A DNA stretch of 5,912 nucleotides from a virus (Duplodnaviria; Heunggongvirae; Uroviricota; Caudoviricetes), in IMG/VR virus record IMGVR_UViG_2529292720_000008. The stretch is one strand, 5' to 3'. The position numbers and the translations under genes were made by a program. The notes beneath the pieces were generated by a model. It saw only the letters and a program-made list of their open reading frames with translations, searched no databases and was not told where the DNA came from. Within the stretch, counting starts at the first letter, position 1, and each line of letters starts with the position of its first letter. Positions 1 through 5,912 of this stretch are shown here, in pieces.

Positions 1-963
1 AAAAACCCCCGTTATGAGTTGTGCGCCACAGTACAGGAAGCACTAAAACCCGTTACGGTGAAGGAAGCGATTAACTACTGGCTGGAGGAATACGCGAAGG
101 ATAACCGCAAAGATTACATAAAGCTGGTGCAGCGTATGGATAAGCACATCATTTGCCATATTGGGGCAATTCCCCTTGATAAGTGTGATACAAGGCAGTG
201 GATCGCATGTTTTGACCGCGTACGAAAAAAAGCACCAGTAGCAGCGGGCCATGTCATGCAGACATGCAAACAGGCGCTAAAGTTTTGCCGCAGGCGGCGC
301 TACGCGTTTAGCAACGCCCTGGACGATTTGATCGTTACTGATGTGGGTAAGAGAGCAGAAATCCGCGAGAGAGTGCACAGCAACAGCGAACTAAAAGAAA
401 TTCTACGCGCTATTGATGGTGATGTGTTCGCTCCCTATTACAGTGCGTTAATGCGCTTGTTAATTGTGTTCGGGTGCAGAACGGCAGAGATCAGACTTTC
501 AGAGATCAAAGAATGGGATCTGAAAGAAATGTTGTGGACAGTGCCAAAAGAGCACAGCAAAACGAAGGTCGCCATATTCAGGCCAATACCGGAAAGCATT
601 TTACCGTTCGTCACGCAGCTGGTGGAGCAGAACAGACACACAGGGCTATTACTCGGGGAACTGAAACAGGAAGCCAGTGTGTCGCAATACGGCAGATTCA
701 TGCACAAAAAATTAAACCATCCGCACTGGTCACTACACGATATACGGCGCACGTTTACCACGATGCTGAACGATTTAGGCGTGGATCCGCATATTGTCGA
801 ACAACTCACCGCTCACCAGATGCCAGGGATGCAGCGAGTCTATAACCACTCCCGTTATCTCGATGCGAAACGTAATGCGCTGGACATGTGGACAGAGCGG
901 TTAGAGATACTGGCGGGTACTCACAAAAACGTAACCACACTGCCAATAGCCAGAGAAATATAA
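1..963 (+). CDS. int: Tyrosine recombinase / phage-type integrase, C-terminal portion; 5' end is outside the window (frame is open from position 1)
   Basis: Frame open from nt 1 to stop at 961-963. Translation carries the catalytic-domain hallmarks of tyrosine recombinases: conserved Arg in GCRTAEI, the HDIRRTF His-x-x-Arg box, and the C-terminal VYNHSRY tyrosine region, followed by a P4-type tail (LDAKRNALDMW). The TTG at 19 is only the ORF finder's first start, not the real one. Confidence 0.9.
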   Translation, partial: KNPRYELCATVQEALKPVTVKEAINYWLEEYAKDNRKDYIKLVQRMDKHIICHIGAIPLDKCDTRQWIACFDRVRKKAPVAAGHVMQTCKQALKFCRRRRYAFSNALDDLIVTDVGKRAEIRERVHSNSELKEILRAIDGDVFAPYYSALMRLLIVFGCRTAEIRLSEIKEWDLKEMLWTVPKEHSKTKVAIFRPIPESILPFVTQLVEQNRHTGLLLGELKQEASVSQYGRFMHKKLNHPHWSLHDIRRTFTTMLNDLGVDPHIVEQLTAHQMPGMQRVYNHSRYLDAKRNALDMWTERLEILAGTHKNVTTLPIAREI

Positions 964-990
964 TTTTTTTTGCGATTTTTTAGAACTGAC

Positions 991-1050
991 ACAACGTGAA
1001 ACAACGAGACACCACGACGAACAACGGCGAACAATCTGGAACAAACTTGA
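991..1050. repeat. Six contiguous 10-bp direct repeat units (acaacgtgaa / acaacgagac / accacgacga / acaacggcga / acaatctgga / acaaacttga), flanked by CTGACAC at 986-992 and 1062-1068
   Basis: Read directly from the sequence: each 10-mer block from 991 begins ACAAC, ACCAC, ACAAT or ACAAA, giving one-helical-turn phasing. Lies in the int-alpA intergenic region. Confidence 0.7.
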
Positions 1051-1330
1051 TTAACATCTGACTGACACCCTAAAAAGTTGATTTTCAGTCGTTTTACTGG
1101 CTTTTTGTACATTGGCGAATCACTCTTAAAAACATGTAAAAAAGGCGTAAAAACAGAATTTTATGCCTTTGCACCACAATGAATTAAAAGAGTTTTTATT
1201 CTCATTACCACACTTCTGTAAAATGACCGCCGCCAGTGTTTGCCATTCCATAAACACCCTGACACAATCCGACGCACCACAACACAATAGGACACCAAAT
1301 AACTCTTTAAGAAATATCAAAGGGGGAATT

Positions 1331-1519
1331 GTGTTAAGCACAGATCGCTTTATACGTGAAAAAGAATGTCAGCAACTTACAGGCCTGAGCCGTTCATGTC
1401 GGTACCGCCTGGAAAAAACCGGACAATTCCCATCACGGCGTAAGCTCGGCGGTCGTTCCGTTGGCTGGTCTTTATCCGAAGTTCTGGCATGGAAGGAAAG
1501 CTGCGAGGCAGTTCACTAA
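1331..1519 (+). CDS. alpA: AlpA-family (Phage_AlpA / MerR-like HTH) transcriptional regulator or excision activator, 62 aa
   Basis: Translation VLSTDRFIREKECQQLTGLSRSCRYRLEKTGQFPSRRKLGGRSVGWSLSEVLAWKE matches the AlpA pattern (TG-x-SR-x-x-Y ... FP ... LG-x-RSVGW ... E-x-x-x-W). GTG start at 1331 has a strong Shine-Dalgarno AAAGGGGGAA at 1319-1328. The in-frame ATG at 1163 lacks an RBS and would add a non-homologous 56-aa extension. Confidence 0.8.
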   Translation: MLSTDRFIREKECQQLTGLSRSCRYRLEKTGQFPSRRKLGGRSVGWSLSEVLAWKESCEAVH

Positions 1520-1525
1520 TCAGGC

Positions 1526-1544
1526 TGGCGGCACACAGCCGCCA
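1526..1544 (+). other. GC-rich stem-loop (TGGCGGC-acaca-GCCGCCA) just after the alpA stop
   Basis: Perfect 7-bp inverted repeat with a 5-nt loop, seen in the sequence. No U-tract follows, so it is not a canonical intrinsic terminator; it may be an RNA processing or stability element, or a protein-binding palindrome. Confidence 0.35.
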
Positions 1545-1571
1545 CCCATCCACTAATACAGAGATCTAACC

Positions 1572-2047
1572 ATGAATACTGGATATTCTCCCGAACAAGG
1601 GCGGGGCTTCGTTCGTCCTGAAAAACAGAATCTGCAAAATTTTGCCGAAATTATTCCGGTTATTTCCGGCCTTACTGGCGGGAGTGAAACCAATATTGTT
1701 AACGCCAGAGCGTTGCAGATGTTTGATGATAAAAAGGGAGTAAATTTAACTTACACCCCTGACGGCAATCAGAATATGAGCATTATCTCTGAGTCAGGTT
1801 TCTACAAACTAATAAAAACAAAAAGCGCCCCGTTGCCGGAGCGCCTTTGTGAACAATTAACCTACTGCGCAAAAAATGAATCTGAGCAGTGGGATTATAT
1901 CAACCGTGTGGCGAAGCGCCACAATTGCCGGATAACAGGCAAAACAAAGGCCACCCGCTACGGTGGCCCCTCGACACAAGCTACACGTTATCCCCAACGC
2001 ATGAGCATCACCAACAATGCCACATTTGCGGCTGGTGGGCAATGTGA
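1572..2047 (+). other. Possible coding region of uncertain status (start of a 470-codon stop-free frame); may be a decayed gene or a frameshifted remnant
   Basis: ATG at 1572 opens a frame whose first ~120 codons look protein-like (including an SESGFYKLI segment that faintly recalls the E-x-G-L-Y-x-L-I core of Bro-N/antirepressor proteins, from memory). There is no in-frame stop until 2984, and the middle of the frame (2050-2580) is Ser/Cys/Arg-rich, antisense-like translation. No boundary can be supported. Confidence 0.2.
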
Positions 2048-2221
2048 TCAGTCAGATTTGGTTCGTTCCAAGGTTTGCAACGAGAGCTTTTTCCTGTGCT
2101 CTTTAAGGAATTTCTCAAGAGCAAAAGCACATGGCGCGAATCTTTCTGATTCATGCTCTATCTTTCTGCGCCGTCTTTTCCGTGCCGGTGATAATGTTTT
2201 GGTCAATTCTTTATCGGTCAT
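2048..2221 (-). CDS. Small basic hypothetical protein (57 aa from the second ATG; the track start at 2236 gives 62 aa)
   Basis: Minus-strand ORF with charged, protein-like composition (MTDKELTKTLSPARKRRRRKIEHESERF...), in contrast to the junk-like plus-frame translation over the same DNA. AGGA lies 7 nt upstream of the second ATG. It sits directly downstream of the leftward RHH-like gene. No family recognised. Confidence 0.25.
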   Translation of the reverse strand: MTDKELTKTLSPARKRRRRKIEHESERFAPCAFALEKFLKEHRKKLSLQTLERTKSD

Positions 2222-2278
2222 TGTGTTGTCCTGCATAGCAATGCGCCGTAATACCTTACACCACGGCGCTGGTGATGG

Positions 2279-2551
2279 TCACTCCTGCTCTTTGGCCTTG
2301 CGACGCTGGAGTTCTTCACGCGCGACGGTGATGAGTTGCCCGATCTCCTCGGCTGCTTTGACTCCGATTTTTTCCACCTGCGCCAGTGCATCGAGCGAAG
2401 AAACCAGGGGATTTTCTCCGCTTCCTTCTGCCTGGCGGCGGGCGATCTCACCGCGAACGGCTGTAATCACGAAAGCGGCTATTGTTTCCCCTTCCGTTTT
2501 CGAATTTTCCATTTCCTCGATTACATCATGGGGGAAGCGGATATTTTTCAT
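2279..2551 (-). CDS. Putative ribbon-helix-helix-like DNA-binding protein, candidate repressor of the divergent rightward operon (90 aa; alternative start at 2584 gives 101 aa)
   Basis: Minus-strand ORF whose N-terminus (MKNIRFPHDVIEEMENSKTEGETIAAFVITAVRGEIARRQ) fits a beta-strand / helix / turn / helix RHH layout, with a helical charged C-terminus. The overlapping plus-frame translation is low-complexity. It is transcribed away from the palindrome-rich region at 2585-2780. The fold call comes from pattern only. Confidence 0.45.
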   Translation of the reverse strand: MKNIRFPHDVIEEMENSKTEGETIAAFVITAVRGEIARRQAEGSGENPLVSSLDALAQVEKIGVKAAEEIGQLITVAREELQRRKAKEQE

Positions 2552-2605
2552 TTGCGATCTGCTGTTGATATTTCCTGTTGCCATCAGAATGTCCGGTTAT
2601 TTTGA

Positions 2606-2709
2606 GGTGTGCATACATTACACCAAAAGGTGTGTAAATAAAACACTTGACACTGTAGCGCACTTAAATTTAATCTGTACACACACCAATGATTGTGGTG
2701 TATGTACAG
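2606..2709. promoter_or_regulatory. Divergent control region: rightward sigma70-like promoter (-35 TTGACA 2647-2652, 16-bp spacer, -10 TTTAAT 2669-2674) flanked by two palindromes built from GGTGTG/CACACC half-sites
   Basis: Consensus -35 hexamer and a 5/6 -10 hexamer at correct spacing. Upstream inverted repeat ACACC-aaaa-GGTGT at 2620-2633. Downstream 14-bp-arm inverted repeat CTGTACACACACCA (2675-2688) / TGGTGTATGTACAG (2696-2709) with one mismatch, overlapping the predicted transcription start. Further GGTGTG copies at 2606 and 2629. Confidence 0.55.
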
Positions 2710-2780
2710 CAAAGCCCCGCAGTGCTGGAACACATGCAGGGCTTCTAACCACCAACGATAGCGAAAGTATCGAGGTAGCT

Positions 2781-2984
2781 ATGAGAAATTATACCAGACA
2801 CCCGCAAGGGCGGGACTCGTACAACCTGAATAAATACATCTGGCGTTTTATCGCCCTGAGCACGGCACAACCGCGCGTGATTACCATTGAGGCCACCAGC
2901 GAACAGGAAGCGCGTCAGCAATCTCCTGATGGCTGCGTGATGGTATTCGCTGCCCGTATTCGCCAGGGGGAACACCATGATTAA
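2781..2984 (+). CDS. Icd-like small protein (host cell division inhibitor Icd-like family, as commonly annotated in P4-like prophages), 67 aa
   Basis: ATG at 2781 preceded by GAGGT at 2772-2776. Translation MRNYTRHPQGRDSYNLNKYIWRFIALSTAQPRVITIEATSEQEARQQSPDGCVMVFAARIRQGE fits my recollection of the Icd-like pattern (W-x-F-x-A-x-S ... SE-x-EAR ... FAAR). First gene downstream of the promoter; the stop overlaps the next start. Confidence 0.55.
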   Translation: MRNYTRHPQGRDSYNLNKYIWRFIALSTAQPRVITIEATSEQEARQQSPDGCVMVFAARIRQGEHHD

Positions 2985-3186
2985 CCTGTCACTTACCGAC
3001 CTTAACCGCGTTCAGTTTCGTGAGAAATTTACCGGGCAGCTACTGGTCAATGTGGATAAAGGTCGCGTGGTGTGTAATTACCACCTGCCAGATGAAGCCA
3101 TTGTCGCAACAAGGGAATCATTACAGGAACTCGCAGAACGTGCCGGAATGATTAACGCGAATATTCAGGGGGTGAGCCATGCATAA
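2977..3186 (+). CDS. Uncharacterised small protein, 69 aa; paralog of the next gene
   Basis: ATG at 2977 with SD GGGGG at 2966-2970; start overlaps the upstream stop (ATGATTAA). Shares an alignable core with the next ORF (FTGQLLVNVDKGRVVCNYHL versus YTGRVLVYLEKGRVKCQCRL, and ...AERAGM versus ...TKSGV). Confidence 0.6.
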   Translation: MINLSLTDLNRVQFREKFTGQLLVNVDKGRVVCNYHLPDEAIVATRESLQELAERAGMINANIQGVSHA

Positions 3187-3391
3187 TCATGAAACGCACT
3201 TACCTGTAGTGCTGAATGTGCCATCAGATTATACGGGGCGCGTACTGGTGTATCTGGAAAAAGGCCGGGTTAAATGTCAGTGCCGTTTAATGGAAAACGA
3301 ATTTATTAGCACTCTTGCGGGATTTTCTGAAATGCTCACTAAATCGGGTGTTAGTGCAGACCAGTTACGCGGGGGCGATTATGCGAAATAA
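3179..3391 (+). CDS. Uncharacterised small protein, 70 aa; tandem paralog of the 2977-3186 gene
   Basis: ATG at 3179 with SD GGGGGG at 3166-3171; overlaps the upstream stop (ATGcaTAA). About one third identity to the preceding protein when aligned by eye, including conserved TG, KGRV and Cys positions. Confidence 0.6.
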   Translation: MHNHETHLPVVLNVPSDYTGRVLVYLEKGRVKCQCRLMENEFISTLAGFSEMLTKSGVSADQLRGGDYAK

Positions 3392-3599
3392 ACATGATAT
3401 TGAAGACCTGGCATTTGAAGCCCTGCACTCTGCGAAAAAAATCAGGGAAGTCGTCAATATGTGGATGAACAGCCTTAGCACCGATGAATCCGATAGCAGA
3501 GAGGAAATTCTTATTTCTTTGTTGTTAGACCTGGCAAATACACAGGTTTCTCTGACATCTGATATTGAACTCGCCGCTAAAAATCTGCCTCTGGAGTAA
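3381..3599 (+). CDS. Uncharacterised small acidic, predicted helical protein, 72 aa
   Basis: ATG at 3381 with SD GGGGG at 3371-3375; 11-nt overlap with the upstream gene. The ORF-track start at 3315 lies inside the upstream gene and lacks an RBS. No family recognised. Confidence 0.5.
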   Translation: MRNKHDIEDLAFEALHSAKKIREVVNMWMNSLSTDESDSREEILISLLLDLANTQVSLTSDIELAAKNLPLE

Positions 3600-3605
3600 A
3601 AAAAC

Positions 3606-3905
3606 ATGAAACAGAAAAATTCTGGCTTTACTGCCAGTGGTCTCCCTCGGCCTGAAATCCGCCCCGGTGATATTTTCCGGGATAACTACGGTGGCACGGT
3701 AACGATTAAAAGCGTGGCGGGGCGGTGCGTTACTTACCGCCGTGATGGGTACGGCTATGACTGCGTGATGCCTGCTTATCAGTTCCGGCGTGATTTTTCA
3801 CTGATACAGGCCACACCACGCAAACAGCCCACCAGCAACGCAAAGGCACGGGCAAATATTCAGAAAATGAAAAACATGATTAACGCATTCAGGGGCAAAA
3901 AATGA
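3606..3905 (+). CDS. Uncharacterised small basic protein, 99 aa, translationally coupled to rep
   Basis: ATG at 3606 with GGAGT upstream; its stop overlaps the rep start (ATGA at 3902-3905). Gly/Arg/Tyr-rich core (GDIFRDNYGGTVTIKSVAGRCVTYRRDGYGYDCVMPAYQFRRDF) suggests a small beta-rich domain. No family recognised. Confidence 0.5.
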   Translation: MKQKNSGFTASGLPRPEIRPGDIFRDNYGGTVTIKSVAGRCVTYRRDGYGYDCVMPAYQFRRDFSLIQATPRKQPTSNAKARANIQKMKNMINAFRGKK

Positions 3906-5317
3906 AACTGGCACCGAACTTAAAAAAACAGCCACACGACAAAATGACCGAAGTCATTATTTTTGCGGGTAGTGATGCCTGGGCGCACGCGAAACAGTGG
4001 CAGGAACAGGACGGGCGACTTGCTGGTGATAACGTCCCGCCTGTATGGCTGGGAGACAGCCAGCTTGACGAACTGGCAGACCTGAAAATTATCGACGATG
4101 GTCGCTATTGTGTCCGGCTGTACAAGGCAGGCCACATCAAGCCGTCAAATATTAATGCTATCGGGCAAAAGCTGGCGGCGGCAGGTGTACGGGATGCGAA
4201 TTATTACCCTGATGGAATGCACAGCCAGAAGCTGGAGAACTGGCACGACTACCTGCAACGGATCCGCGAACAGGCAGAGCGCGGGGAAATACTTACTGAC
4301 GAGCAATACAGCCAGCGAAAAACCACGCTACCAATGAGCATTGGATCTGCAGGGTACGACACACAGCTTGATTATGTCGTTAAGGGCGTGATTCCGGCTA
4401 ATTCATTGTGCAGCACATACGGCGCGAGCGGTTCCTATAAATCGTTCCTCGCGTGTTCCTGGGCGTGTCATGTTGCCACTGGCCGTCACTGGGGAGGCCG
4501 CAGGGTGGCGCATGGTTCGGTGATGTATGTTGTCGGTGAAGGTGGCATTGGTGTCCCCCGCCGTATCAAGGCATGGGAAATCGTTAATGATGAACGGGTG
4601 GAAAATCTGTACCTGGTAAACCGCCCGATTTTTCCGGCAGTCCCGCTTGATGTTGATGAAATGGTCATCGCTTCCCGCCAGGTTGAACGGGAAACGGGTA
4701 AACCGGTACGCATGATTATTCTTGATACGCTGGCGCGTTGCTTTGGCGGTAATGATGAAAATGACGCGCGGGATATGGGGGCGTTTATCCGTGGATGTGA
4801 CGAACTGAAACGCCGCACAGGGGCCACGGTGCTGGTGGTTCACCATTCCGGCAAGGATGAAACAAAGGGGGCGCGTGGTTCCAGTGCATTTCGTGCATCT
4901 CTGGACGCTGAATACCGTATTCGCCGTGAAGGTGCAGACAGTGAAGCCCTGGTTATCTCCTGCACAAAAATGAAGGACGCGGAGGAACTGAAAGAGGCCG
5001 CATACGATTTACGTGTGGTGGAGCTTTTTACCGACACTGACGGGGAGTTAATCACGTCGCTGGTTGTTGTGGATAAGCCGCGCCCACCCGTTGAACTGGA
5101 GCGCATCGAGGAAGCCGGGAACAAGACGGAGAATCATGCCGCGCTATGGGGCTGTATCCGTTCACGCACACAGCGCGGAGATAAATGCACTATTCCGTTG
5201 TTGCGCGATGATATGAAAAAGCTGGGGTATGAGATGAAACACTTCCGGCGCTGGCTGTACAAGCTGGAAGGTGATGGCGTTATTGCTATTGACGGTGATG
5301 ACGTGCGCCCACTGTAA
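3902..5317 (+). CDS. rep: Replication protein: RepA-like / DnaB-like RecA-fold ATPase (AAA_25-type) with an uncharacterised N-terminal ~150-aa domain, 471 aa
   Basis: Walker A GASGSYKS at nt 4421-4444, Walker B-like hydrophobic stretch with Asp (RMIILDTLA, around nt 4709-4735), and the VLVVHHSGKDETKGARGSSA motif typical of RepA-like helicase/ATPase cores. Ends immediately upstream of an iteron cluster. The alternative start at the MTEV Met (nt 3944) cannot be excluded. Confidence 0.85.
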   Translation: MKLAPNLKKQPHDKMTEVIIFAGSDAWAHAKQWQEQDGRLAGDNVPPVWLGDSQLDELADLKIIDDGRYCVRLYKAGHIKPSNINAIGQKLAAAGVRDANYYPDGMHSQKLENWHDYLQRIREQAERGEILTDEQYSQRKTTLPMSIGSAGYDTQLDYVVKGVIPANSLCSTYGASGSYKSFLACSWACHVATGRHWGGRRVAHGSVMYVVGEGGIGVPRRIKAWEIVNDERVENLYLVNRPIFPAVPLDVDEMVIASRQVERETGKPVRMIILDTLARCFGGNDENDARDMGAFIRGCDELKRRTGATVLVVHHSGKDETKGARGSSAFRASLDAEYRIRREGADSEALVISCTKMKDAEELKEAAYDLRVVELFTDTDGELITSLVVVDKPRPPVELERIEEAGNKTENHAALWGCIRSRTQRGDKCTIPLLRDDMKKLGYEMKHFRRWLYKLEGDGVIAIDGDDVRPL

Positions 5318-5518
5318 AAAGTGGGTAGTAAAAGTGGGGAGTGTGGGGAATTTAACAAAATTGAAACGTGATTCCCCACTTTCCCACCTGTATATACCCC
5401 AAAAAGTGGGGAATAAAAAACACATTGAAAAACATCACGTTAGAATCACAAAAAAAAGAAGTGGGGAGACGTTGGGTAATTTCAAAAAGTGGGTAGTAAA
5501 AGTGGGGAGCAGTGAGGA
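5316..5518. repeat. Iteron cluster, putative origin of replication: at least 8 copies of AGTGGGGA-like 8-mers in both orientations, a 26-bp perfect direct repeat (5316-5341 and 5484-5509), and an A-rich tract
   Basis: Read directly: AAAAAGTGGGTAGTAAAAGTGGGGAG occurs twice. Additional GTGGGGA / TCCCCAC copies at 5334-5340, 5342-5349, 5373-5380 (inverted), 5381-5388 (inverted variant), 5405-5412 and 5461-5467. A-rich segment at 5411-5460. Position right after rep fits a rep-ori arrangement. Confidence 0.7.
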
Positions 5519-5770
5519 ATGACCAGAAAAACCAGAGATAAGACAGCGCCAAAATATAAAGCGTTAGACATGACAGAGCACGCCTTAAAGGTGGCAATCA
5601 GAACGATAGACCGCCACGCTGGGGAAGGATACGCGAAAGCACACCCCGAACTGATAAGCGCATTCATGACCACGACGGCGGCAAACTTTGCCACGCTGAC
5701 AGAACGGGAGATTGCCGAAGCGGAACAGGTGACAACCATCAACGTTAAAACTGGAGAGCAGACAGCATGA
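5519..5770 (+). CDS. Hypothetical protein, 83 aa
   Basis: ORF with ATG at 5519 (GGGGAG at 5504-5509 as a possible SD); its stop overlaps the next start (ATGA at 5767-5770). Helical, Ala/Thr-rich translation. No family recognised. Confidence 0.4.
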   Translation: MTRKTRDKTAPKYKALDMTEHALKVAIRTIDRHAGEGYAKAHPELISAFMTTTAANFATLTEREIAEAEQVTTINVKTGEQTA

Positions 5771-5912
5771 CAGCACAGATAGCGGCTTACGGGCGGCTGG
5801 TGGCTGACCCGCAGTTAAAGACCACCAGCAAGGGTACACAAATGACGATGGCTAGTATGGCGGTCCCCCTTCCGTGCAGCCAGGCAGATGACGGAACGGC
5901 GATGATGTGGTT
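5767..5912 (+). CDS. SSB-like OB-fold protein, N-terminal part only (continues beyond the window end)
   Basis: Translation MTAQIAAYGRLVADPQLKTTSKGTQMTMASMAVPLP...DDGTAMMW follows the N-terminal pattern of single-stranded DNA-binding proteins (G-x-L-x-x-DP-E/Q-L-R/K ... G ... A-x-x-AV ... W). Only 48 codons are visible. Confidence 0.35.
   Translation, partial: MTAQIAAYGRLVADPQLKTTSKGTQMTMASMAVPLPCSQADDGTAMMW

What the first reader, a model, noticed from the sequence alone, without database searches (positions are those of the whole stretch)
1..5912. Window is the int / alpA / regulator / rep / ori backbone of a satellite-type integrative element
Gene content and order (tyrosine integrase, AlpA, divergent small regulator, Icd-like gene, small-protein cassette, RepA-like ATPase, iteron ori, SSB-like gene) match the replication-regulation module of P4-like satellites or Gram-negative phage-inducible chromosomal islands. 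No capsid, tail or lysis genes appear. Such elements commonly carry helper-interference or anti-phage cargo, so the uncharacterised small genes here and the flanking DNA outside the window deserve attention.
Basis: partly seen in the sequence, partly recalled or inferred. Interest (0 to 1): 0.5.

Follow-up and report, generated by a model that had tools for sequence, protein, structure and literature searches.

The report
Left half of an E. coli PICI satellite
The window is the integration, regulation and replication half of a well-known type of E. coli phage satellite (a phage-inducible chromosomal island of the EcCICFT073 family), so the classification is ordinary, but its regulatory region holds an undescribed-looking repressor cassette lying antisense inside a conserved long reading frame.

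Summary
The window carries, in the stated order, a 5'-truncated tyrosine integrase, AlpA, a leftward small-gene cassette, an Icd-like gene, four small genes, a RepA-family helicase, an iteron origin, an 83-aa gene and the start of an SSB gene.

Positions 547-5912 match a 10.1-kb island in E. coli 90-9280 apart from two synonymous SNPs. That island has att direct repeats and sits between mcaS/abgR and smrA. Downstream it has a lambda gpE-like capsid gene, a gpD-like decoration gene, an AlpA-like gene and a Nu1-type small terminase, with no tail or lysis genes.

Gene order matches the characterised PICI EcCICFT073 (AlpA 96.8% identical). The element is a Gram-negative PICI, not P4-like, and is already common in databases.

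Three corrections apply:
- The integrase is a sharp chimera. Bases 1-569 are identical to the integrase of a capsid-forming PICI.
- The "divergent regulator" is a two-gene leftward cassette. It encodes a ribbon-helix-helix YlcI/YnfO-like protein and a 62-aa protein, with allele-specific operators.
- That cassette lies antisense inside a 470-codon rightward frame ending in the Icd-like gene, the same nested layout as P4 eta/kil. The frame stays open in 15 of 17 diverged allele groups (about 1 expected).

The parts
1..963 (+). Tyrosine integrase, C-terminal 320 codons (5' end cut by the window). It is chimeric. Bases 1-569 are 100% identical to the integrase of a capsid-forming PICI at the rcnR site of E. 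coli SMS-3-5. Bases 547-963 are identical to the integrase of the abgR/smrA-site PICI.
   Evidence: Pfam Phage_integrase 4e-16. Difference profile and junction. The frame stays open across the junction. Read from the translation: RTAE, HDIRR and VYNHSRY motifs, which look like the conserved catalytic motifs.
547..569 (.). Crossover interval of the chimeric integrase: 23 nt shared by both parental alleles.
   Evidence: The last difference from L001 is at 546 and the first difference from L005 is at 570. The junction 70-mer is absent from metagenome contigs and genome contigs. No complete E. coli genome matches across it. The best integrase cluster is only 86% identical.
1331..1519 (+). alpA, 62 aa with a GTG start. 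It is the master activator in the EcCICFT073 family.
   Evidence: Pfam Phage_AlpA 1e-17. 96.8% identical to EcCICFT073 AlpA. The function was shown for EcCICFT073 in PMC6092414.
1572..2984 (+). 470-codon 'bridging' reading frame. It has an N-terminal Bro-N/Ant-like remnant (about 1692-1862), a low-complexity middle that is antisense to the two leftward genes and the operator region, and a C-terminal Icd/Kil-like domain. It is the analogue of P4 eta.
   Evidence: ORF list. PHROG Ant hits at aa 44-90 and phrog_6196 at aa 380-469. The frame is open upstream of the Icd ATG for 130-408 codons in most of 96 loci, while the other two frames stop within 1-11 codons. 15 of 17 allele groups are open against 0.96 expected.
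2781..2984 (+). Nested icd/kil-like gene, 67 aa.
   Evidence: NCBIfam phage_ICD_like 1e-19. The same family and phrog_1743 hit the C-terminus of the P4 eta/kil frame.
2279..2584 (-). YlcI/YnfO-like protein, 101 aa, with a ribbon-helix-helix N-terminal domain and a long C-terminal helix. Proposed allele-specific repressor.
2048..2236 (-). 62-aa basic protein, second gene of the leftward cassette. Function unknown.
   Evidence: phrog_21027 2e-14. 84-100% conserved across most elements.
1821..1848 (-). Intrinsic-terminator-like hairpin for the leftward cassette: 12-bp stem followed by a T-run.
1946..1971 (-). Second minus-strand terminator-like hairpin downstream of the 62-aa gene.
2585..2708 (.). 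Divergent control region. Predicted rightward promoter: TTGACA at 2647-2652, a 16-nt spacer, and TTTAAT at 2669-2674. Four operator-like copies of GGTG-N5-6-CAG / CTGTA-N-CACC lie at 2606-2618, 2653-2663, 2675-2687 and 2697-2709; the last two form a 35-nt palindrome over the predicted transcription start.
   Evidence: Sequence. Palindrome. Invariant TTGA and allele-specific repeats at fixed offsets in other alleles.
2709..2780 (+). Conserved 72-nt leader just upstream of the icd-like start codon. It has two hairpins. Hairpin 1 is kept through compensatory changes. Hairpin 2 has invariant stems and a variable loop.
   Evidence: About 92% identical where the flanks are about 50%. RNAalifold found 13 pairs, 5 with compensatory changes. 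No Rfam family reached threshold; the only sub-threshold match was symR on the minus strand, 25 bits, E 0.14.
2977..3905 (+). Four small overlapping genes: 2977-3186 and 3179-3391 (paralogues, phrog_340), 3381-3599 (phrog_2196) and 3606-3905 (DUF4222).
   Evidence: No PADLOC hits.
3902..5317 (+). Replication protein, 471 aa, with a RepA-family (AAA_25) helicase core. Its N-terminal 131 aa are 63% identical to the N-terminus of the EcCICFT073 primase-type Pri-Rep.
   Evidence: Pfam AAA_25 3e-44. phrog_2850 7e-251. Comparison with EcCICFT073 Pri-Rep. The identical protein is indexed in 3115 blocks of the public assemblies.
5316..5509 (.). Replication origin. Two sets of iterons (AAGTGGGKA: six direct and one inverted exact copy, plus degenerate copies) flank an A-rich stretch at about 5410-5458.
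   Evidence: 7 matches against 0.09 expected. The layout matches the published E. coli PICI origins. Iteron sequence differs for each Rep allele.
5519..5770 (+). 83-aa conserved protein of unknown function.
   Evidence: phrog_1231 3e-50.
5767..5912 (+). First 48 codons of an SSB gene, cut by the window end.
   Evidence: Translation. The full-length gene in relatives carries Pfam SSB.

Best explanation
The window is the left part (integration, regulatory 'Bro' and replication zones) of a classical Gram-negative phage-inducible chromosomal island of the EcCICFT073 family.

Steps shown for the close relative EcCICFT073:
- Int integrates and excises the island.
- Rep together with the iteron origin drives replication.
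- Late genes lying just beyond the window divert helper packaging.

Steps I infer from comparative evidence:
- In the quiescent state, the leftward ribbon-helix-helix YlcI/YnfO-like protein binds three or four allele-specific operators. These overlap an internal rightward promoter, so the icd-to-rep operon stays off.
- After induction, AlpA-driven transcripts start upstream at the alpA promoter and run antisense through the repressor cassette.
- The 470-codon frame keeps ribosomes on that transcript until the icd-like gene, so the transcript is not terminated. This is the logic described for the P4 nested genes eta and kil, with a protein repressor in place of the P4 CI RNA.
For: Family assignment:
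- Domain hits for every gene.
- 547-5912 is virtually identical to a 10.1-kb island bounded by att repeats.
- The gene order equals that of EcCICFT073, and AlpA is 96.8% identical.
- The same late module occurs in all ten contexts of the identical Rep protein.
- Published functions of int, alpA and pri-rep-ori are given in PMC6092414.
- The five PICI core components are listed in PMC10085698.

Repressor inference:
- The predicted fold is RHH-like.
- 29 distinct YlcI-like proteins fall into about 17 N-terminal allele groups. Each group has its own repeated GGTG-N5-6-CAG motif at fixed offsets, in the promoter spacer and at the predicted transcription start.
- Window and clone D i14 have identical AlpA and identical 62-aa protein. 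Their YlcI N-termini and their operators both differ.

Bridging-frame inference:
- The Icd frame has zero stops in 47 of 51 distinct 'intergenic' sequences. The other two frames average 3.7 stops.
- Intergenic lengths differ by multiples of 3 (190, 193, 196, 199, 205) except in the four frameshifted sequences.
- When only the variable columns are shuffled, 0.96 of 17 groups are expected to be open. 15 are open.
- Frameshifted alleles still carry a 286-309-codon frame that ends 20 nt before the icd ATG.
- P4 eta/kil shares the Icd-like family. The P4 mechanism is summarised in PMC10111431.
Against: - The true flanks of this window are unknown, and the chimeric integrase was not found in any other sequence.
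- The integrase 5' part comes from a capsid-forming PICI, and PICIs and cf-PICIs can share identical left arms. The late module is therefore inferred, not seen.
- No binding, transcription or translation data exist for the cassette or the long frame.
- Over the two coding genes alone, the open antisense frame is not surprising given their amino-acid composition (P about 0.1-1 per gene, mostly 0.2-0.9).
- The published description calls Gram-negative PICIs unidirectional and found no repressor.
Confidence: 0.87

Rival explanations
1. The window is the left arm of a capsid-forming PICI (cf-PICI), with its own capsid, portal, protease, connector and TerL genes downstream.
For: Bases 1-569 are 100% identical to the integrase of the 14.9-kb cf-PICI at the rcnR site of E. 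coli SMS-3-5. That element has the same AlpA / YlcI-like / Icd-like / DUF4222 / Rep / SSB layout. The literature notes that PICIs and cf-PICIs can have identical left arms.
Against: Everything from 547 to 5912 is identical to classical PICIs. All ten contexts read for the identical Rep protein have the short late module without portal or TerL.
Confidence: 0.08
2. The window is a P4-like satellite backbone.
For: It shares int, an AlpA/Vis-type regulator, an Icd/Kil-like gene nested in a long frame, and a helicase-type replication protein.
Against: - Rfam C4 and isrK (the P4 CI RNA and seqA) are found in P4 but not in the window.
- Rep carries AAA_25 only, not the domains of the P4 alpha primase.
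- Relatives carry no psu/delta/sid.
- The origin lies 3' of rep, as in PICIs.
Confidence: 0.02
3. The leftward cassette is a type II toxin-antitoxin or addiction module (RHH antitoxin plus a small toxin) that only autoregulates itself. On this view, the long antisense frame is open because of constraints unrelated to translation.
Against: - The 62-aa protein matches no toxin or defence family.
- Two operator copies sit in the spacer and at the start site of the predicted rightward promoter, not only at the leftward one.
- The open frame and the 3n length rule hold in the non-coding operator region, where antitoxin coding cannot explain them.
Confidence: 0.12
4. The first 569 bases do not belong with the rest of the window. 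The window is an assembly chimera joining two co-resident PICIs at a 23-nt shared stretch.
For: - The switch from 100% identity with one parent to 100% identity with the other is abrupt.
- Both integrase types co-occur in single strains such as 90-9280.
- The junction is absent from every collection searched.
Against: The junction is in frame and falls in a conserved integrase motif, where natural recombination is plausible. These elements are highly mosaic elsewhere.
Confidence: 0.3

Closest known systems
EcCICFT073 (E. coli CFT073 PICI, between roxA and phoQ; PMC6092414, PMC6739421)
   Same: - The gene order is the same: int, alpA, a leftward YlcI-like gene plus a 62-aa gene inside a long rightward frame (428 codons there), icd-like, small genes, DUF4222, Rep, iteron origin, an 83-aa-type gene, SSB, then capsid and decoration genes.
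- AlpA is 96.8% identical and window 1500-2300 is about 97% identical, with 1553-1905 identical.
- The Rep N-terminal 131 aa are 63% identical.
   Different: - The Rep core is a RepA/AAA_25 helicase rather than a primase-type Pri-Rep, with different iterons: AAGTGGGKA against CTGTCTACC.
- The integrase allele and attachment site differ.
- The YlcI-like allele is the 101-aa form with different operators.
- The sibling island has an AlpA-like gene plus a Nu1-type TerS where EcCICFT073 has RppA.
Satellite phage P4: vis, the nested genes eta and kil, and CI RNA immunity
   Same: - An AlpA/Vis gene is followed by a long frame whose 3' end is an Icd/Kil-family small gene. NCBIfam phage_ICD_like and phrog_1743 hit both.
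- A promoter-like site lies inside the long frame.
- The literature describes eta translation as preventing termination of transcripts from the upstream promoter.
   Different: - No C4/isrK RNA is present.
- The immunity position holds an antisense protein-coding cassette instead.
- The frame is 470 codons against 214.
- The replication protein, origin position and late genes all differ.
Capsid-forming PICI at the rcnR site of E. coli SMS-3-5
   Same: The integrase 5' 569 nt are identical. The regulatory and replication layout is the same.
   Different: That element carries HK97-type capsid, protease, portal, connector, HNH, TerS and TerL genes, a primase-type Rep and GGTGAACAGTT iterons.
Helper-embedded PICIs (HE-PICIs; PMC10111431)
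   Same: Rep, the origin and the small genes are identical, and the late module is the same. The four-zone organisation (integration, Bro, replication, late) also matches.
   Different: HE-PICIs sit inside a lambdoid prophage portal gene and keep a full 192-aa Bro-N gene. The window has only a Bro-N remnant, fused into the long frame.

Membership tests
Gram-negative PICI (EcCICFT073 type; SatelliteFinder PICI model) | Integrase at the left end | tested here: met
   Pfam Phage_integrase 4e-16. The gene is 5'-truncated by the window.
Gram-negative PICI (EcCICFT073 type; SatelliteFinder PICI model) | AlpA-family regulator just downstream of int | tested here: met
   Pfam Phage_AlpA 1e-17. 96.8% identical to EcCICFT073 AlpA.
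Gram-negative PICI (EcCICFT073 type; SatelliteFinder PICI model) | Primase/replicase module followed by an origin with two iteron sets flanking an AT-rich stretch | tested here: met
   AAA_25 Rep whose N-terminus is shared with EcCICFT073 Pri-Rep. Seven iterons at 5319-5508 against 0.09 expected. The published origin layout is described.
Gram-negative PICI (EcCICFT073 type; SatelliteFinder PICI model) | Capsid-morphogenesis gene and small terminase or Rpp gene downstream | tested here: inconclusive
   These lie outside the window. They are present in the island identical from base 547 and in all ten contexts of the identical Rep protein.
Gram-negative PICI (EcCICFT073 type; SatelliteFinder PICI model) | No tail, holin or lysis genes; island of about 8-17 kb with specific att repeats | tested here: inconclusive
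   Met inside the window. Met in the sibling island: 10.1 kb with a 26-nt perfect att core. The window's own flanks were not recovered.
Gram-negative PICI (EcCICFT073 type; SatelliteFinder PICI model) | Induction by a helper phage and high-frequency transfer | not testable with these tools
   Shown only for EcCICFT073 and a few other elements.
P4-like satellite | psu-delta-sid operon | tested here: inconclusive
   Absent from the window and from every related island read. The window's own flanks were not recovered, so absence from this element is inferred.
P4-like satellite | CI immunity RNA and seqA (Rfam C4 and isrK) | tested here: not met
   No hit in the window at E up to 1. Both are found in P4 as a positive control.
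P4-like satellite | Alpha-type primase-helicase | tested here: not met
   Only AAA_25 is detected in Pfam. PHROG hits to primase families cover the helicase core or the short N-terminal domain only. P4 alpha itself was not compared directly.
Capsid-forming PICI | Portal, protease, head-tail connectors and TerL | tested here: inconclusive
   Not in the window. Absent from contexts that share the Rep allele. Present in the element that shares the integrase 5' part.
P4 eta/kil-type nested genes | An Icd/Kil-family small gene forms the 3' end of a longer in-frame ORF that begins next to the alpA/vis gene | tested here: met
   1572-2984 contains 2781-2984, and the frame starts 53 nt after the alpA stop. 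The protein family is shared with P4. The layout is conserved in 15 of 17 allele groups.
P4 eta/kil-type nested genes | Translation of the long frame prevents termination of transcripts from the upstream promoter | not testable with these tools
   Inferred from the conservation of the open frame and the near-gapless tiling of rightward ORFs.
Ribbon-helix-helix repressors | Beta-alpha-alpha DNA-binding fold | tested here: met
Ribbon-helix-helix repressors | Repeated operators near the regulated promoters that match the protein's specificity | tested here: met
   Allele-specific GGTG-N5-6-CAG repeats co-vary with the N-terminal allele and are independent of AlpA. Binding itself was not tested.

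The most novel reading that the evidence does not exclude
Gram-negative PICIs, including the model element EcCICFT073, may have an unrecognised immunity switch. Its parts would be:

- An allele-specific ribbon-helix-helix repressor (YlcI/YnfO-like), encoded antisense inside the rightward transcription unit. It silences an internal promoter of the icd-to-rep operon.
- A conserved bridging reading frame, nested with the icd/kil-like gene. Its translation lets AlpA-driven transcripts override the repressor cassette and probably silences it by convergent transcription.

This would be the P4 eta/kil logic rebuilt with a protein repressor in place of the CI RNA.
Probability: 0.4. Interest if true: 0.65.

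Novelty: new member of a known kind. Interest (0 to 1): 0.35.

Why it matters
As a classification the result is routine. The element is a common, already annotated E. coli PICI with no detectable defence cargo in this part.

It matters in two smaller ways. First, it illustrates how freely these satellites swap modules. The integrase is half from a cf-PICI. A shared Rep N-terminal domain is joined to different helicase cores, each with its own iterons.

Second, the 2018 description of Gram-negative PICIs left open whether they have a repressor at all. The antisense RHH cassette, its co-varying operators and the conserved bridging frame are also present in EcCICFT073. That gives a concrete hypothesis that can be tested directly in the model element. 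It also flags an annotation problem, since RefSeq calls this region inconsistently.

Tried and rejected
- **Real flanks.** I searched the 70-nt integrase junction in metagenome contigs and genome contigs and found no matches. A search with the integrase fragment against 5.8 billion proteins gave a best hit of 86%, with no chimeric representative. No IMG/VR locus carries the junction.
- **ORF3 N-terminus in species-representative genomes.** Nothing was found.
- **Long frame as an annotation artefact.** I rejected this first reading after the frame-conservation tests. A synonymous-codon shuffle showed that the part overlying the two minus-strand genes is not significant on its own.
- **P4-type immunity RNA.** Rfam found no C4 or isrK in the window, CFT073 or SMS-3-5, although both are found in P4. 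The only match, symR on the minus strand at 2708-2780, is far below threshold.
- **Leader fold from a single sequence.** It is not distinctive (z -1.5). Only the alignment shows covariation.
- **RHH by sequence alone.** A PDB profile search and Pfam scans of 14 alleles were inconclusive.
- **Rpp in the sibling island.** Neither the 127-aa nor the 180-aa late protein resembles RppA. The 180-aa protein has no PDB relative by sequence, and nor does Rep.
- **Defence cargo.** PADLOC gave no credible hits for nine window proteins (including the whole 470-aa frame) and one downstream protein; the only match was a 14-bit Cas5f/Csy2 hit (E 0.005) for the YlcI-like protein, which I treat as noise.
- **tRNA-type attachment site.** None occurs in the window or around the sibling island.
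- **First guess at the CFT073 coordinates.** It landed on a lambdoid prophage.

Full report
**What is in the window.**
- A 5'-truncated tyrosine integrase lies at 1-963 (Phage_integrase, 4e-16).
- alpA lies at 1331-1519 (Phage_AlpA, 1e-17).
- Two leftward genes lie at 2279-2584 (YlcI_YnfO_N, 8e-18) and 2048-2236 (phrog_21027).
- An Icd-like gene lies at 2781-2984 (phage_ICD_like, 1e-19).
- Four small overlapping genes follow at 2977-3905. Two are paralogues, and the last carries DUF4222.
- A 471-aa RepA-family protein lies at 3902-5317 (AAA_25, 3e-44).
- An 83-aa gene and the first 48 codons of an SSB gene close the window.
- Between rep and the next gene, the motif AAGTGGGKA occurs seven times within 190 bp, against 0.09 expected. 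The copies form two sets around an A-rich stretch.
- The window holds no tRNA and no structural or lysis gene.

**Relatives and boundaries.** The window matches 1888 of 5426 complete E. coli genomes in part, and 31 genomes over at least 80% of its length.
- From base 547 to the end it differs by only two synonymous SNPs from an island in E. coli 90-9280.
- That island is bounded by a 69-nt direct repeat with a 26-nt perfect core, and the repeat copies lie 10,139 bp apart.
- It lies between the McaS sRNA/abgR and smrA, with no tRNA nearby.
- Beyond the SSB gene it carries a lambda gpE-like major capsid gene, a gpD-like decoration gene, an AlpA-like gene, a Nu1-type small terminase and one small ORF. 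It has no tail or lysis genes.
- The identical Rep protein is indexed in 3115 blocks of the public assemblies. All ten contexts read show the same late module.
- Two of those contexts are islands inserted in the portal gene of a lambdoid prophage, the helper-embedded PICI arrangement (PMC10111431).

**Comparison with the characterised element.** EcCICFT073 in CFT073 lies between roxA and phoQ and has the same gene order, including the two leftward genes. I confirmed its identity through RppA, which matches the RppC crystal structure sequence at 5e-31.
- AlpA is 96.8% identical between the two elements.
- Window 1500-2300 is about 97% identical to CFT073, with 1553-1905 identical.
- For EcCICFT073, the literature shows that int, alpA and pri-rep are needed for transfer. 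It shows that AlpA is a helper-induced activator of its own promoter and of the next gene, ORF3. It shows that pri-rep-ori is a functional replicon, and that RppA redirects the helper TerS.
- The five PICI core components are integrase, regulator, primase-replicase, a capsid-morphogenesis gene and a small terminase. The window holds the first three, and its siblings hold the other two.

P4 membership fails. No C4 or isrK RNA is present, although both are detected in P4 itself. The replication protein shows only AAA_25 in Pfam, not primase-type domains. No psu-delta-sid occurs in any relative.

**Mosaicism.** The integrase is a sharp chimera.
- Bases 1-569 are 100% identical to the integrase of a 14.9-kb capsid-forming PICI at the rcnR site of E. 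coli SMS-3-5.
- Bases 547 onward are identical to the abgR/smrA-site element. The crossover therefore lies in 23 shared bases.
- The junction was not found in complete E. coli genomes, in JGI metagenomes, in species-representative genomes, among the fetched IMG/VR loci, or as a protein cluster.
- It is either a rare natural recombinant or an assembly artefact. Both parental integrase types co-occur in single strains.

The Rep protein shares its first 131 residues (63% identity) with the primase-type Pri-Rep of EcCICFT073, but the rest is a different helicase core. Each Rep allele has its own iteron sequence. The sibling island has no Rpp homologue; it carries an AlpA-like gene and a Nu1-type TerS at that position.

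**The regulatory region is more structured than the finding says.** The Icd-like gene is the 3' end of a 470-codon open frame at 1572-2984. The frame starts 53 nt after the alpA stop. It carries a Bro-N/Ant-like remnant at its N-terminus, and it runs antisense across both leftward genes and the divergent control region.

I first took this for an annotation artefact, because RefSeq calls it a 470-aa Icd-like protein in 90-9280 but leaves the region unannotated in CFT073. Comparative data argue otherwise.
In most, the Icd frame stays open for 130-408 codons upstream, while the other two frames close within 1-11 codons.
- In the diverged, nominally non-coding part between the YlcI-like start codon and a conserved leader, 47 of 51 distinct sequences have no stop in the Icd frame. 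The other two frames average 3.7 stops.
- Intergenic lengths are 190, 193, 196, 199 or 205 nt, all multiples of 3 apart. The four exceptions are 188 or 197 nt long.
- With the conserved columns held fixed and the variable columns shuffled, 0.96 of 17 allele groups would be expected to be open. 15 are open.
- The frameshifted alleles still carry a 286-309-codon frame across the cassette, ending 20 nt before the icd ATG.
- Over the two minus-strand genes themselves, openness is not significant given their composition. The signal comes from the operator region.

The layout equals that of the P4 nested genes eta and kil. The 214-codon P4 frame begins at the end of vis, and its C-terminus hits the same phage_ICD_like and phrog_1743 families. 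In P4, translating eta prevents termination of transcripts from the upstream promoter (PMC10111431 summarising Forti et al. 1999).

**The leftward cassette looks like an immunity repressor.**
- The 101-aa YlcI/YnfO-like protein models with pLDDT 82 as an extended segment, two helices and a long C-terminal helix.
- Across the loci there are 29 distinct proteins, in short (59-aa) and long (101-aa) forms. Their putative DNA-reading N-terminal strand varies by allele.
- Each allele has its own repeated GGTG-N5-6-CAG motif at fixed offsets. One copy lies next to the leftward start. One lies in the spacer of a conserved rightward promoter, which has an invariant TTGA and a TAnnnT-type element 16-18 nt downstream. 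One or two copies lie over the predicted transcription start.
- In the window, the promoter elements are TTGACA at 2647-2652 and TTTAAT at 2669-2674. The repeats lie at 2606-2618, 2653-2663, 2675-2687 and 2697-2709.
- Window and clone D i14 have identical AlpA and an identical 62-aa protein, but different YlcI N-termini and different operators. The operators therefore track the YlcI-like protein, not AlpA.
- Two minus-strand terminator-like hairpins close the cassette, at 1946-1971 and 1821-1848.
- A 72-nt leader upstream of the icd ATG (2709-2780) is conserved. Its first hairpin is kept through compensatory changes.

**Proposed mechanism.**
- *Shown in EcCICFT073.* A helper phage induces alpA. 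AlpA activates rightward transcription. Int, Rep and the origin excise and replicate the island.
- *Inferred here.* In the quiescent state, the RHH protein represses the internal rightward promoter and its own promoter. After induction, transcripts from the alpA promoter are translated almost without gaps through the bridging frame. They cross the repressor cassette antisense and reach the icd and rep genes.

This agrees with the published finding that AlpA overexpression alone triggers replication. I found no paper linking YlcI/YnfO or an RHH protein to PICI control. The 2018 paper states that the existence of a repressor was unclear.

**Verdict.** The window-level finding is correct and ordinary. 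It is the left part of a known, abundant PICI family, with no defence cargo detectable among its small genes. Interest is modest. It comes from the chimeric integrase and, mainly, from the testable repressor and bridging-frame hypothesis.

Noticed in passing
window 1-569 versus 547-5912: The integrase gene is a sharp in-frame chimera of two PICI integrase alleles: a cf-PICI at the rcnR site and a classical PICI at the abgR/smrA site. The two share only 23 nt at the crossover. The junction was found in no other sequence searched.
   Followed up: yes
window 1572-2984; L001 16541-17953; L004 29767-31053: RefSeq treats the same region inconsistently. In E. coli 90-9280 it is a 470-aa 'Icd-like protein'. 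In clone D i14 it is a 68-aa Icd-like gene plus a minus-strand YlcI/YnfO gene. In CFT073 the long frame is not annotated. Both strands appear to be under constraint, and their third codon positions coincide.
   Followed up: yes
window 2709-2780: A conserved 72-nt leader lies upstream of the icd-like start. It has two hairpins. Hairpin 1 keeps its pairing through compensatory changes in 5 of 6 consensus pairs. Hairpin 2 has invariant stems, a variable 7-nt loop and an invariant CTAACCACCAACGATAG stretch. It occupies the position of the P4 CI/seqC region but matches no Rfam family.
   Followed up: partly
window 3902-4294 (Rep residues 1-131): An N-terminal Rep domain of about 130 aa is shared at 63% identity between this RepA-type protein and the primase-type Pri-Rep of EcCICFT073. 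Iteron sequences follow the C-terminal part instead. The role of the shared domain is unknown.
   Followed up: partly
window 1524-1546: A GC-rich hairpin (GGCTGGCGGC ACACA GCCGCCAcc) lies directly after the alpA stop. It is identical in CFT073 and clone D i14 and has no T-run on either strand. Its function is unknown.
   Followed up: no
window 970-1050; L001 14613-14640; L005 13634-13660: The int-alpA spacer is rich in GAACAA/AACAAC repeats. These are the reverse complement of the TTGTTC/GTTGTT repeats next to the att cores. They may be arm-type Int sites or AlpA binding sites.
   Followed up: no
L001 14656-14681 and 24795-24820; L005 13676-13699 and 28586-28609: Both att cores are tandem duplications of an 11-12-mer: GGTGTAGTTAAT twice and TGTGTGGTCAG twice. 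In L001, attL lies about 175 nt from the McaS sRNA gene.
   Followed up: partly
L002 6621-7541 and 18355-18603; att copies at 7613-7681 and 18229-18297: In clone D i14, the same island with the same integrase protein and the same 69-nt att repeats, including their outer flanks, sits between two fragments of an IS110-family (ISEc45) transposase near tRNA-Asp. It is not at abgR/smrA there. This suggests the island moved together with its flanks.
   Followed up: no
L013 5975-15356 and L014 5975-15355: Islands with the identical Rep, origin and late module lie inside the portal gene of a lambdoid prophage (the helper-embedded PICI arrangement). They keep a full 192-aa Bro-N gene where the window has only a remnant.
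   Followed up: partly
L001 20736-21160: The SSB gene of the otherwise identical island in E. coli 90-9280 is annotated as frameshifted. The window ends before the relevant position, so its own SSB status is unknown.
   Followed up: no
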